Of a stretch of DNA of 64,000 nt, positions 20,301 through 23,300 are shown piece after piece (position 1 is the stretch's first letter; every line of letters starts with the position of its first letter). This stretch comes from the human T2T-CHM13v2.0 reference genome, Homo sapiens. The stretch is from assembly GCF_009914755.1 (NCBI RefSeq), contig NC_060928.1, one strand, 5' to 3'. The translations under genes and the position numbers were made by a program. The notes under the pieces were generated by a model. It made no database searches and was not told where the DNA came from. It worked only from the letters and a program-made list of their open reading frames with translations.

Positions 20301-23300
20301 TTTGTTGCCTTTCCACATAAACCTTAAGAGTCAGTTTGTCAATATCCACAAAGTAGCTTACTGGTATTGTAATTGGGACTGTATTAAATCTGTAGATCAA
20401 GTTGGGAAAAATTGCCATCTTAGAAATAATGTATCTTCCAATTGATAAACACAGAATATCTCTTCATTTATTTAGATCTTTGATTCCTTTTATCAGAATT
20501 TTGCAGTTTCTGCATACAAATCCATAATTTTATTAGATTTGTACCTAAGTATTTCATTTTCCCATGGTAATGTAAGAGATATTGGGTTCTTAATTTCAAA
20601 TTCCAATTCTTCATTGCTGTTATAAAGCAAAGCAATGGACCTTTGTATGTTAACTTTGTATCCTGGGCAGAGAAGAGGTGAGGGTGAGGCGGTCAGCGCA
20701 GGAGCCAGGTCAGGCTGGGCAGGGGGTCCCTGAGTGCCTGAGGCCTCACCTTCTCCTTGGTCATGTCCAGGGGGCTCACCAAGTACCGTCACAGCCACAC
20801 TTTTAAAACCAAGGTCTATTGGGCTGTGCGGCAGGGGCAGGCCACCTAGGCGTCCCAGCTCCTGGGGGACCCATGAGGCCCTGACCACAGCCCCGCACAC
20901 AGCCGTCAGAGACACACGTTTTTTGTTTTTTGTTTTTTGTTTTCTGAGACAGAGTCTCACTCTGTCACCCAAGCTAGAGTGCAGTGGTGCAATCTCAGCT
21001 CACTGCAACCTCCACCTCCCGGGTTCAAGCGACTCTCCTGCCTCAGCCTCCCAAGTAGCTGAGACTACTGATGTGCATCACCATGCCCACCTAATTTTTG
21101 TATTTTTAGTAGAGATGGGGTTTCACCATGTTGGCCAGGCTGGTCTTAAACTCCTGACCTCAGGTGATCTGCCCACATCAGCCTCCCAAAGTGCTGGAAT
21201 TACAGGCCTGAGCCACCATACCAAGCCAGGAGTTTTTTATTGATTATTGGTGTTTTTACCTAGACAATCATGTCATCTGCAAACAAAGATAGTTTTATTT
21301 CTTCCTTCTCAATCTATATACATTGTATTTCTTTTTCTTGCCTTATTGCACTAGCTAGGACTTCAAGTATAATGTTGAATGTGAGTGGTGAGAGGAGGGA
21401 GATATCTTTGCCTTATTCCCAATCTTAGGAGAAAGCATCCACTTTCTCACCATTAAGAATGACATCACCCAGCTGGGCATGGTGGCTCATGCCTATAATC
21501 CCAGCACTTTGGGAGGCCAAGGTGGGTGGATCACCTGAGGTCGGGAGTTTGAGATCAGCCTGACCAACATGGAGAAAAACCCCCATCTCTACTAAAAATA
21601 CAAAAAATTAGCCAGGCATGGTGGTGCATGCCTATAATTCCAGCTACTTGGGAGGCTGAGACAGGAAAATCGCTTGAACCTGGGAGGCAGAGGTTGTGGT
21701 GAGCCAAGATCATGCCATTGCACTCCAGCCTGGGCAACAAGAGTAAACTCCGTCTGAAAAAAAACAAAACTAAACTAAAAAAAGAATGACATCACCCAGC
21801 ATGGTGGCGCATGCCTATAATCCCAGCACTCCGGAAGGCTAAGGCAGGCAGATAGCTTGAGCCCAGGAGCTTGAGACCAGCCTGGGCAACATGGCGAAAC
21901 ACCATCTCTACAAAAAATGCAAAAAAGTTAGCCAGGTGTGGTGGTGTGTGCCAGCAGTCCCAGCAACTCGCCACTGCACTCCAACCTGGACAACAGACAC
22001 TGTCTCAAAAAAAAAAAAAAAAAAAAAAAAAGAATGCCCTTAGCTCTAGGGTTTTTGTTGAATTTTTAAAATCCACTTGAGGAAGTTCTCTCTATTTCTA
22101 GTTTGCTAAGTGTTTTTATTCAGAATGAGTGTTGGATTTTTCAAATTTTTTTCTGCATTGATTGATAACATCATGTATTTTTTGAACAAATTGTGAACGA
22201 GCTTTGCATACCTGGAATAAATGCCACCTGGTCATGTAGTGTAATTATTATTTTCATACATTGTTAAATCGGTCTTGCCATGTTTTGTTAAGAATTTTGG
22301 CATCTATAAGCCGGGTGTGGTGGCTCACACCTATAATCCCAGCACTTTGGGAGGTTGAGGCGGGCGGATCACGAGGTCAAGAGATTGACACCATCCTGGC
22401 CAACATGGTGAAACCCCGTCTCTACTAAAAATGCAAAAATTAGCTGGGTATGGTGGCAGACATCTGTAGTCCCAGCTACTCAGGAGGCTGAGGCAGGAGA
22501 ATCACTTGAACCCGGGAAGTGGAGGTTGCAGCGAGCCAAGATCATGCCACTGCACTCCAGCCAGGGAGACAGAGCGAGATTCCATCTCAAAAAAAGAAAA
22601 AAAAAAAGAATTTTTGCATCTATATTCATGAGCTACATTGGTCTGTAGTTTTTCTTTCTTATAATGTCTTTATCTGGTTTTGCTATTAGGATAATTTTGA
22701 CCTCATTGAATGAGATAAGAGTGTTTCCTCTGCTTCTATTTTTTGGAAGGGATTGTAGTGAATTGACATAACATCTTTCCTAAATGTTTGGTCAGATTCA
22801 CCAGTGAAACTATTAGGGACTGGTGCTTTCTTTTTGGATGATTATTAATTATTGATTCAATTTCTTTAATACTCAGAGAACTCTTCAGATTCTTCTAATT
22901 CTCCTGGTGTGAGTCTTGGTAGTTTGTGTCTTTCTAGTGATCAGTCTATTTCATCTAAGTTAAAATCAAATTTTGAGGCATAGAGTTGTCATAATATTTA
23001 TTATTTATTTTCTTCTGCTTGCTTTAGGCTTAATTTGAAGTTCTTTTTCTAGTTTCTTAAGCTTTGAGTGTTGATTTAGATCTTTCTTCTTGTTTATTAT
23101 GTGCATTCAATACTATAAATTTCCCTCCAAGCACTGCTTTCCCTGCACCTGACAAATTCTGACAGGTTGTATATTTTTATTCTTATTTAGTTCAAAATCT
23201 TTTTTTTTTTTTTTTTTTTTGAGGGAGTCTCGCTCTGTAGCCAGGCTGGAGTGCAGTGGTGGGATCTCGGCTCACTGCAACCTCCACCTCCCGGGTTCAT

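What the first reader, a model, noticed from the sequence alone, without database searches (positions are those of the whole stretch)
20661..20794. PDE6B carries an inverted copy of its own exon 4/intron 4 inside intron 3: a potential built-in antisense duplex
Seen: a GC-rich island interrupts an AT-rich L1. Its reverse complement (ctgtga-cggtacttggtgagccccctggacatgaccaaggagaag|gtgaggcctc...ctcacctcttctctgcccag|ga) matches 33256-33390 at ~84% by hand alignment. It includes perfect runs of ~29 nt across the exon 4 donor and ~26 nt across the exon 5 polypyrimidine tract/acceptor. The intron is retained, so it is not a processed retrocopy. The left junction TCCTG is shared with the L1 (microhomology), suggesting templated insertion during DNA repair. 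Inference: because it lies 12.5 kb upstream in the same pre-mRNA, it could pair with and mask both splice sites of the 87-nt intron 4 and the Met280 codon, or form an ADAR substrate. The best-preserved blocks are the splice-site-complementary ones.
Basis: partly seen in the sequence, partly recalled or inferred. Interest (0 to 1): 0.8.

Follow-up and report, generated by a model that had tools for sequence, protein, structure and literature searches.

The report
Patchwork repair scar in PDE6B intron
An old DNA repair event pasted four short pieces of the PDE6B gene, one of them a backwards copy of the exon 4/intron 4 junction, into intron 3; nothing shows that this copy regulates the gene.

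Summary
Window 20661-20788 is the reverse complement of 33263-33390 (end of exon 4, the whole 87-nt intron 4, first 2 nt of exon 5): 109 of 128 identical, no gaps, E 6e-37. These are the only two copies found in the genome.

The copy is the first of three or four abutting patches that fill a 258-nt GC-rich island (20661-20918). All were templated from PDE6B 6-19 kb downstream. The island replaces 27 nt of an old L1 ORF2 and sits against the A-tail of an Alu whose 3' target-site duplication is cut short. A 5-nt microhomology (CAGGA) marks the L1 junction. This points to a multi-template repair or replication scar, probably made after the Alu arrived.

The functional idea has no support from the sequence. 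The duplex is thermodynamically strong (-253.5 kcal/mol). The better preservation over the splice sites fits a neutrally drifting copy compared with a constrained source (P 0.13). Only 6 of 13 transitions keep G·U pairing. The arms lie 12.5 kb apart among 59 higher-scoring Alu inverted pairs. Primate dating and retina RNA data could not be checked.

The parts
20661..20788 (-). Patch 1: copy of the last 39 nt of PDE6B exon 4, the whole of intron 4 (87 nt) and the first 2 nt of exon 5. It is in the PDE6B sense on the minus strand, so it is antisense within the PDE6B pre-mRNA. A gapped extension to 20794 is possible.
   Evidence: 109 of 128 identical to 33263-33390, E 5.7e-37. Only two places in the genome. 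Positions 20661-20665 (TCCTG) are also L1 sequence, giving a microhomology.
20790..20821 (-). Patch 2: inverted copy of 27040-27071, a single-copy stretch of intron 3 that ends where an Alu begins in the source.
   Evidence: 28 of 32 identical, 39.4 bits. None of 300 dinucleotide shuffles of 20789-20918 reached this score in 264 kb. The source is single-copy in the genome search. Context.
20822..20860 (+). Patch 3: direct copy of one unit of the GC-rich minisatellite at 36804-37874, in the intron between the exons at 36660-36803 and 38261-38326.
   Evidence: 33 of 39 identical to 37746-37784, 44.1 bits, with many other units matching. None of 300 shuffles reached it. Minisatellite.
20856..20901 (-). 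Patch 4 (marginal): inverted copy of 39974-40017, just downstream of the exon at 39776-39922. It overlaps patch 3 by 5 nt.
   Evidence: 36 of 46 identical with one gap, 34.7 bits, E 0.001 in 264 kb. Reached by 9 of 300 shuffles. The source is single-copy.
20902..20918 (.). 17 nt with no template found, lying between patch 4 and the Alu tail.
   Evidence: No significant match in 264 kb or in the genome search.
20919..21225 (-). Alu, near full length, on the minus strand. Its A-rich tail (20919-20944) abuts the island. The 5' flank looks like a classical L1-endonuclease site and target-site duplication; the 3' duplication is absent beyond its first 7 nt.
   Evidence: Sequence. Both halves match 7SL/SRP RNA on the minus strand (20944-21226). 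Divergence from the majority of 90 local Alus is 11.7% at all sites and 5.6% at non-CpG sites.
21226..21465 (-). L1 ORF2 (reverse-transcriptase region including the FADD motif), the part 5' of the break.
   Evidence: The translation holds [10 protein letters not shown]. It matches human LINE-1 ORF2p residues 663-686, E 9e-6. It is 76-82% identical to the 39 other scored L1 copies.
19863..20665 (-). L1 ORF2, the part 3' of the break. It resumes 27 nt further along the L1.
   Evidence: It aligns to the same 11 L1 copies. 27 nt lie between the two flanks in 3 of the 4 copies that align cleanly, and 24 in the fourth. It resumes at ORF2p residue 731 (weak, E 0.06).
33263..33390 (+). Template of patch 1: end of exon 4, intron 4 and start of exon 5 of PDE6B. 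PDE6B-AS1 overlaps it on the other strand.
   Evidence: Exon 4 encodes a sequence that matches bovine PDE6B residues 239-284, with the last 13 residues identical. Annotation from the hub table.
27040..27071 (+). Template of patch 2.
36804..37874 (+). Minisatellite (units of 46 and 35 nt) that holds the template of patch 3.
39974..40017 (+). Candidate template of patch 4.

Best explanation
The inverted exon 4/intron 4 copy is one patch of a 258-nt filler that healed a break inside an old L1 in PDE6B intron 3.

Inferred order of events:
- An old L1 sat in the intron.
- An Alu inserted into it by ordinary target-primed reverse transcription.
- Later the DNA broke, or a replication fork collapsed, at the 3' end of the Alu's A-tail.
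- About 33 nt were lost: 27 nt of L1 plus the rest of the Alu's 3' target-site duplication.
- The gap was filled by a polymerase that copied three or four short templates in the same gene, 6-19 kb downstream, in both orientations.
- Synthesis rejoined the L1 at a 5-nt microhomology (CAGGA).

This is the pattern of microhomology-mediated, multi-template-switch repair (MMBIR/FoSTeS, or polymerase-theta-type templated insertion).

What is shown: the copy, its uniqueness, the patches, the L1 deletion and the microhomology.

What is inferred: the order relative to the Alu, a DNA rather than RNA template, and that the scar has drifted neutrally since. If it pairs with exon 4/intron 4 in the pre-mRNA at all, that is an accident and not a selected function.
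For: (1) Copy: 109 of 128 identical, E 5.7e-37, and only two places in the genome.

(2) Mosaic: the rest of the island is tiled end to end by 20790-20821 (inverted 27040-27071, 39.4 bits), 20822-20860 (direct minisatellite unit, 44.1 bits) and 20856-20901 (inverted 39974-40017, 34.7 bits). In 300 dinucleotide shuffles the best score in 264 kb was 37.9; none reached 39.4, 9 reached 34.7, and none had two non-overlapping pieces of at least 34.7 bits.

(3) Location of templates: all lie in the 20 kb downstream. That stretch is 7.6% of the searched 264 kb and held the best hit of 25 of 300 shuffles.

(4) Not a repeat family: the sources of patches 2 and 4, and the 130 nt as a whole, have no other copy in the genome search.

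(5) Target: 11 other L1 copies show that the two L1 flanks are contiguous apart from 27 nt (3 of the 4 cleanly aligned copies). 6 of 11 read CAGGA where the PDE6B copy joins.

(6) Alu: on the L1-sense strand its 5' flank is an A-run followed by CTCCTGG and preceded by AT, which is an L1-endonuclease-type site. After the A-tail only AAAAAAC is left, followed by unrelated sequence.

(7) Neutrality: 4 of 68 differences fall at exon and splice-signal positions against 15 of 60 in the intron interior. This fits 'copy neutral, source constrained' (expected 6.9, P 0.13; 3 against 8 events, P 0.39). 6 of 13 transitions are G·U-compatible. All 3 codons altered in the exon part of the copy change the amino acid, whereas the source encodes the residues of bovine PDE6B.

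(8) Precedent: germline templated insertions that copy up to five templates, and class 2 templated insertions with microdeletion and microhomology and without a target-site duplication or poly(A), are described (passages read in PMC8421209, and PMC5110952).
Against: - Patch 4 is only marginal (9 of 300 shuffles reach it), and 17 nt have no template.
- Apart from the 5-nt junction with the L1, microhomology at the inner junctions is short or imperfect (read).
- The templates are 6-19 kb away, while the published germline MMBIR survey looked only within 100 bp, so that survey cannot show how typical such distances are.
- Three of the four patches, the Alu and the L1 all read in the same sense on the minus strand. 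This leaves room for cDNA patches from PDE6B pre-mRNA.
- The 29 splice-signal positions carry no change at all (P 0.046 at d = 0.10). This is a post-hoc, weak hint in favour of constraint on the copy.
- The order 'Alu first' rests on a 7-nt remnant that also matches the repeat unit of the Alu tail.
- No outgroup was available, so none of the 19 differences could be assigned to a lineage.
Confidence: 0.75

Rival explanations
1. In rod photoreceptors the copy pairs with exon 4/intron 4 of the same pre-mRNA over 12.5 kb. It thereby tunes use of the donor and acceptor of the 87-nt intron, or makes an ADAR substrate that edits exon 4, and it is kept by selection.
For: - The duplex is strong: -253.5 kcal/mol, net -134.8 after self-folding, against -338.0 for a perfect antisense.
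- It is the only non-Alu inverted pair in the pre-mRNA part of the window that touches a coding exon.
- It covers both splice sites with perfect runs of 29 and 26 nt.
- There are no changes in the 29 splice-signal positions (P 0.046).
- Intron 3 cannot be removed before exon 4 is transcribed, so both arms coexist in one molecule (inference).
- Base-pairing over splice sites is generally obstructive (passages in PMC8052449). Guide RNAs that span exon-intron junctions lowered correct splicing in minigenes (figure legend in bioRxiv 10.64898/2026.07.30.741163).
Against: - The preservation pattern fits a neutral copy (P 0.13 and 0.39).
- Changes do not favour pairing: 6 of 13 transitions are G·U-compatible.
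- The exon part of the copy took three amino-acid-changing codon changes.
- 59 of 96 inverted pairs in the same pre-mRNA score higher, and 112 inverted pairs of at least 40 nt lie in 15000-35000 alone.
- Complementary regions are depleted at active splice sites in human genes. Exons 4 and 5 are in the selected transcript, and no retained-intron-4 exon is listed among the 18 RefSeq models in the hub table.
- The other patches of the island have no such rationale.
Confidence: 0.06
2. The scar is the same, but the patches were copied from RNA: short cDNA pieces of unspliced PDE6B (or PDE6B-AS1) transcripts, perhaps made by L1 ORF2p. They would have been captured at a double-strand break (class 2 templated sequence insertion, or endonuclease-independent retrotransposition), possibly together with the Alu in a single event.
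For: - There is no target-site duplication and no poly(A) for the patches, and there is a microdeletion and a microhomology. These are the features given for class 2 insertions, which the authors attribute to RNA-derived patches (passages in PMC5110952).
- Three of four patches, the Alu and the L1 share one orientation, and all templates lie in one transcription unit.
- The Alu lacks a complete 3' target-site duplication.
Against: - Patch 3 has the opposite orientation to the other patches.
- The intron is retained in patch 1 for either strand's transcript.
- It requires PDE6B transcripts in germline or early embryonic cells (PDE6B being rod-specific is recalled knowledge).
- The Alu's 5' flank looks like an ordinary endonuclease site, which argues for a separate, classical Alu insertion.
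- Templates close together in cis fit DNA template switching more simply.
Confidence: 0.15
3. The island is what is left of a larger inverted duplication of the PDE6B exon 4-12 region that has since been whittled down by deletions.
For: Patches 1 and 2 are both inverted, and they lie in the order expected of an inverted copy (33.3 kb, then 27.0 kb).
Against: - Patches 3 and 4 are out of order, and patch 3 is direct.
- The patches abut within 0-1 nt or overlap by 5 nt, which would need four exact deletions.
- Only 27 nt of L1 are missing at the site.
Confidence: 0.03

Closest known systems
Germline MMBIR-type templated insertions (MMB-TI; Osia et al. 2021, PMC8421209; passages read)
   Same: The inserted sequence copies nearby genomic templates, mostly in inverted orientation. 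There is microhomology at a junction. Complex events draw on several templates (up to five are reported). Such events are found as fixed or polymorphic germline variants with no gross rearrangement.
   Different: The templates here lie 6-19 kb away, whereas that survey searched only within 100 bp. Patch 1 is long (128 nt). The event is ancient and has diverged by about 15%. It removed 27 nt of L1 next to an Alu tail.
Class 2 templated sequence insertion polymorphisms (Onozawa and Aplan, PMC5110952; abstract and passages read)
   Same: A patch of 73-414 bp at a break, with no target-site duplication and no poly(A), and with microdeletion and microhomology.
   Different: Those patches come from distant regions, often other chromosomes, and are attributed to RNA. 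Here every patch comes from the same gene in cis, in both orientations, and one carries an unspliced intron.
Long-range complementary regions in human pre-mRNAs (PCCRs, Kalmykova et al. 2021, PMC8052449; passages read), and ADAR editing-complementary sequences such as the intronic partner of the GRIA2 Q/R site (recalled)
   Same: An intronic stretch complementary to an exon/intron junction of the same transcript, with a duplex energy far beyond the catalogue's classes.
   Different: That catalogue covers only conserved, non-repeat intronic regions less than 10,000 nt apart. This pair is 12.5 kb apart and arose by duplication rather than by conservation. It shows no sign of selection for pairing (6 of 13 transitions), and no structure or editing data were available. 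Known editing partners lie much closer (recalled).
Inverted Alu pairs in introns
   Same: Duplication-derived inverted repeats in one pre-mRNA that can form long dsRNA. 59 such pairs in this pre-mRNA score higher.
   Different: This pair is single-copy and covers a coding exon end and both splice sites of a constitutive intron.

Membership tests
Multi-template microhomology-mediated templated insertion (MMBIR/FoSTeS/TMEJ type) | The inserted DNA is a copy of genomic sequence elsewhere, and the template is left in place | tested here: met
   Patch 1 has E 5.7e-37. Patches 2 and 3 exceed 300 of 300 shuffles. All sources are still present.
Multi-template microhomology-mediated templated insertion (MMBIR/FoSTeS/TMEJ type) | Microhomology at the junctions | tested here: inconclusive
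   The L1/patch 1 junction has 5 nt (CAGGA, present in 6 of 11 L1 copies). Patches 3 and 4 overlap by 5 nt, of which 4 match both sources. The other junctions show 0-3 nt or imperfect matches.
Multi-template microhomology-mediated templated insertion (MMBIR/FoSTeS/TMEJ type) | Several templates joined in one insertion, in either orientation | tested here: met
   Three well-supported patches and one marginal patch tile 20661-20901: three inverted and one direct.
Multi-template microhomology-mediated templated insertion (MMBIR/FoSTeS/TMEJ type) | Templates close to the break (within 100 bp in the MMBSearch definition) | tested here: not met
   The templates lie 6.3, 12.5, about 16-17 and 19 kb downstream. 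They are in the same gene, but far beyond 100 bp (definition read).
Multi-template microhomology-mediated templated insertion (MMBIR/FoSTeS/TMEJ type) | Made by a replicative or repair DNA polymerase switching templates | not testable with these tools
   Sequence alone cannot tell a DNA template from an unspliced RNA template.
Class 2 templated sequence insertion (break patch) | No target-site duplication and no poly(A) of its own; microdeletion at the target | tested here: met
   27 nt of L1 are missing. The patches have no duplication and no A-tail; the adjacent A-tail belongs to the Alu.
Class 2 templated sequence insertion (break patch) | [quoted passage not shown] | tested here: not met
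   All templates lie in cis within 20 kb. RNA origin cannot be tested.
Processed retrocopy | Introns removed, poly(A) tail, target-site duplication | tested here: not met
   The 87-nt intron 4 is present in the copy. The copy has no A-tail and no duplication.
L1 template-switch chimera (U6-L1 type; recalled class) | Foreign RNA copy fused in the same orientation to the 5' end of a 5'-truncated L1 | tested here: not met
   The orientation is the same, but the L1 continues on the other side of the Alu with only 27 nt missing. The L1 was therefore whole before the event.
Functional long-range pre-mRNA duplex / editing-complementary sequence | Extended complementarity to the target site | tested here: met
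   -253.5 kcal/mol over about 134 nt.
Functional long-range pre-mRNA duplex / editing-complementary sequence | Evolutionary maintenance of the pairing (conservation or compensatory change) | tested here: not met
   The spread of differences fits a neutral copy (P 0.13 and 0.39). 6 of 13 transitions are G·U-compatible. No outgroups were available, so the test is weak.
Functional long-range pre-mRNA duplex / editing-complementary sequence | Evidence that the duplex forms or acts (editing sites, ligation reads, splicing change) | not testable with these tools
   No RNA-seq, editing database or structure-probing data are on hand. No paper on this site was found.

The most novel reading that the evidence does not exclude
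A repair accident gave primate PDE6B a built-in 128-nt antisense to its own exon 4 donor, 87-nt intron 4 and exon 5 acceptor. In rods, where the gene is very highly transcribed, a fraction of pre-mRNAs may form this 12.5-kb-range duplex. That would cause measurable intron 4 retention, slower splicing or ADAR editing of exon 4. It would be a lineage-specific brake on a retinal disease gene, and a place where deep-intronic variants or deletions could change PDE6B output. Transcripts that start at the internal first exons (31232-32628) would escape it.
Probability: 0.05. Interest if true: 0.65.

Novelty: new member of a known kind. Interest (0 to 1): 0.3.

Why it matters
As it stands this is a clean, datable fossil of a multi-template repair event in the human germline. 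It has four patches from one gene, templates up to 19 km... 19 kb away, a defined target deletion and a microhomology. Current short-read surveys look for templates only within 100 bp, so this case shows that such events can reach much further in cis.

It also cautions against reading selection into copy-versus-source identity: blocks that are constrained in the source look 'preserved' in an inert copy.

If the duplex did act in rods, it would be a rare case of a gene regulated by an accidental inverted copy of its own splice sites. It would then matter for interpreting deep-intronic PDE6B variants in retinitis pigmentosa. Nothing found here points that way.

Tried and rejected
- Chance similarity is rejected (E 5.7e-37).
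- Processed retrocopy is rejected because the intron is retained.
- L1 template-switch chimera is rejected because the L1 continues beyond the Alu with 27 nt missing.
- Remnant of a large inverted duplication is rejected on the order and orientation of the patches.
- A single contiguous source for 20789-20918 elsewhere was not found. The genome search found only the island itself, and the 264-kb local BLAST found nothing better than the three patches. The genome search is insensitive to short diverged matches: it did not report the patches either.
- Repeat-family membership of the sources of patches 2 and 4 was not found.
- No RNA family lies in the island. The Rfam E-value scan of 19800-21500 hit only the Alu (SRP and Alu-derived miRNA families, all below their gathering scores).
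- Intron 4 does not fold better than shuffles (z -0.11).
- Literature. 'PDE6B-AS1' gave 2 papers, seen in the search listing only and not opened. PDE6B with exon 4, intron 4 and splicing gave 1,659 papers, of which 12 were listed and two were opened for their PDE6B passages. One concerns c.1832A, which that preprint places at the end of exon 11; the other concerns a promoter reporter. Neither touches this site. Searches on PDE6B editing and on inverted exon copies gave nothing on it.
- Primate or other mammalian genomes, retina RNA-seq, editing databases and the PCCR supplementary tables or hub were not available or not consulted.
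Full report
**1.
BLASTN of 20400-21000 against the window pairs 20661-20788 (+) with 33390-33263 (-). Identity is 109 of 128 (85.2%), with no gaps, E 5.7e-37 (alignment). By the hub's table, 33263-33301 is the end of exon 4, 33302-33388 is the 87-nt intron 4, and 33389-33390 is the start of exon 5. 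The island lies in intron 3 (15251-33160), 12,475 nt upstream.

A search of the whole assembly with 20661-20918 finds only these two places. The perfect runs are 29 nt (33280-33308) and 26 nt (33365-33390).

**2. Surroundings.**
Read on the minus strand, the locus runs in this order:
- L1 ORF2 with the FADD motif, 21465-21226. It matches ORF2p residues 663-686, E 9e-6.
- An Alu, 21225-20919, whose A-tail is at 20944-20919. Both halves match 7SL RNA on the minus strand.
- The 258-nt GC-rich island, 20918-20661.
- L1 ORF2 again from 20665 down. It resumes at ORF2p residue 731 (E 0.06).

GC content rises from 0.275 to 0.545 at the island.

I aligned both L1 flanks to 11 other L1 copies fetched from the genome. 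In those copies the flanks are contiguous apart from a short stretch: 27 nt in 3 of the 4 copies that align cleanly, and 24 nt in the fourth. The L1 was therefore whole and lost 27 nt at this site.

**3. The island is a patchwork.**

| Island position | Template | Orientation | Match | Score |
|---|---|---|---|---|
| 20790-20821 | 27040-27071 | inverted | 28 of 32 | 39.4 bits |
| 20822-20860 | one unit of the minisatellite at 36804-37874 | direct | 33 of 39 | 44.1 bits |
| 20856-20901 | 39974-40017 | inverted | 36 of 46, one gap | 34.7 bits |

Seventeen nt (20902-20918) have no template.

I searched a 264-kb stretch: the window plus 100 kb on each side. These three are the best non-self matches in it. 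In 300 dinucleotide-preserving shuffles of the 130 nt, the best score averaged 28.3 bits and peaked at 37.9. None reached 39.4, 9 reached 34.7, and none had two non-overlapping pieces of at least 34.7 bits.

All templates lie in the 20 kb downstream, inside PDE6B. That interval is 7.6% of the search space and held the best hit of 25 of 300 shuffles. The sources of patches 2 and 4 are single-copy in the genome search, and so are the 130 nt as a whole. That search is insensitive to short diverged matches, however.

I take patches 1-3 as established and patch 4 as probable.

**4. Mechanism and order (inferred).**
A filler made of several short copies of nearby sequence, in both orientations, with a small target deletion and a microhomology, is the signature of template-switching repair.
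- Germline templated insertions linked to MMBIR, some copying up to five templates, are described in PMC8421209 (passages). That survey searched for templates only within 100 bp.
- Class 2 templated sequence insertions share the lack of a target-site duplication and poly(A), and the microdeletion and microhomology. They come from distant loci and are attributed to RNA (PMC5110952, abstract and passages).

On the L1-sense strand, the Alu's 5' flank is an A-run followed by CTCCTGG and preceded by AT. That is the kind of site the L1 endonuclease uses (5'-TTTT/A-3') and a normal target-site duplication. After the Alu tail only AAAAAAC remains before unrelated sequence begins.

The simplest reading has three steps. 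The Alu inserted classically. The break then occurred at the 3' end of its A-tail. About 33 nt (the rest of the duplication plus 27 nt of L1) were replaced by about 253 nt of filler. I put this order at about 0.6, because AAAAAAC is also the repeat unit of the tail. A single event that captured the Alu cDNA together with the patches is the alternative.

**5. Does it work as an antisense?**
Points in favour of the physics:
- RNAduplex and cofold give -253.5 kcal/mol for the two arms. Each arm alone folds at -65.1 and -53.6, so the net is -134.8. A perfect antisense would give -338.0.
- It is the only non-Alu inverted pair in the pre-mRNA part of the window that touches a coding exon. The other 9 exon-touching rows all involve the Alu inside the last exon.

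Points against a selected function:
- The uneven preservation is real: 4 of 68 differences at exon 4, donor, polypyrimidine/acceptor and exon 5 positions, against 15 of 60 in the intron interior (Fisher P 0.003). But it is expected for an inert copy. Constrained positions are frozen in the source, so only the copy drifts there, while the intron interior drifts in both. Under that model 6.9 of the 19 differences are expected in the constrained class and 4 are seen (P 0.13). When adjacent changes are merged there are 11 events, split 3 against 8 (P 0.39).
- The source exon encodes the same 13 residues as bovine PDE6B. All three codons altered in the copy change the amino acid (read). The exon differences therefore arose in the copy.
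- Of 13 transitions, 6 keep a G·U pair and 7 break pairing.
- 59 of 96 inverted pairs in the same pre-mRNA score higher. 112 inverted pairs of at least 40 nt lie in 15000-35000.
- In human genes, complementary regions are depleted at active splice sites and enriched at inactive or cryptic ones (PMC8052449, passages). That catalogue is limited to conserved, non-repeat regions less than 10,000 nt apart, so it cannot contain this pair.
- The hub table lists no retained-intron-4 exon among the RefSeq models.

The one hint the other way is that the 29 splice-signal positions carry no change (P 0.046 at d = 0.10). That test is post hoc.

**6. Age.**
Under the neutral model, per-lineage divergence of the copy is 0.10, or 0.06 if clustered changes count as one event. 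The neighbouring Alu differs from the majority of 90 local Alus at 11.7% of all sites and 5.6% of non-CpG sites. The patch event is thus of about the same age as this middle-aged Alu, or carries extra errors from low-fidelity synthesis. From recalled Alu ages that means tens of millions of years, within primates. This needs primate alignments, which no tool here offers.

**7. Verdict.**
The copy is real, and its repair origin is supported and sharpened: a mosaic of PDE6B pieces and not a single copy. The regulatory reading stays a physical possibility without evidence; I put it at about 5%.

I found no paper on this site. The two papers I opened for PDE6B passages concern other parts of the gene. 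Supplementary tables of the structure catalogues were not consulted.

Noticed in passing
33281-33373 (minus strand) and 20678-20770 (plus strand): PDE6B-AS1 splices out a 93-nt intron (GT at 33373-33372, AG at 33282-33281 on the minus strand) that lies almost exactly opposite PDE6B's 87-nt intron 4, so this stretch is an intron on both strands. The inverted copy keeps both signals on the PDE6B-sense strand: GAG|GTGAGG with GT at 20678-20679, and a pyrimidine tract followed by CAG|G with AG at 20769-20770. No annotated exon uses them (hub table; sequence).
   Followed up: partly
33332-33347 against 20704-20719: Within intron 4, a 5-bp hairpin stem (CCTGG...CCAGG) differs between source and copy by two adjacent compensatory pair swaps: T-A becomes C-G at 33334/33345, and G-C becomes A-T at 33335/33344. 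The small stem appears in the predicted folds of both versions. The intron as a whole folds no better than shuffles (z -0.11). This could reflect selection on a hairpin or a one-step template-switch mutation within a quasi-palindrome.
   Followed up: partly
36804-37874: A GC-rich minisatellite of about 1.1 kb (units of 46 and 35 nt, 80-91% matches between copies) lies in the PDE6B intron between the exons at 36660-36803 and 38261-38326. One unit was the template of patch 3.
   Followed up: partly
27040-27381: The template of patch 2 ends exactly where a plus-strand Alu begins (27072). Either that Alu arrived after the copying, or the coincidence is mechanistic. No clear target-site duplication of that Alu was seen.
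   Followed up: partly
16600-27400 and 49900-50225: Intron 3 holds a dense cluster of Alus in both orientations: 112 inverted pairs of at least 40 nt in 15000-35000, the longest 247 nt at 89%. An Alu inside the last exon (49720-50456) is complementary to at least nine intronic partners, mostly Alus. These are stronger dsRNA candidates than the exon 4 pair.
   Followed up: no
20769-20815: On the PDE6B-sense strand, the acceptor-like CAG|G at 20770/20771 is followed about 44 nt later by a donor-like CAAG|GTCTAT (near 20813). This is a possible cryptic exon made from patches 1 and 2. It is not among the annotated exons in the hub table, and it was not scored with a splice-site model.
   Followed up: no
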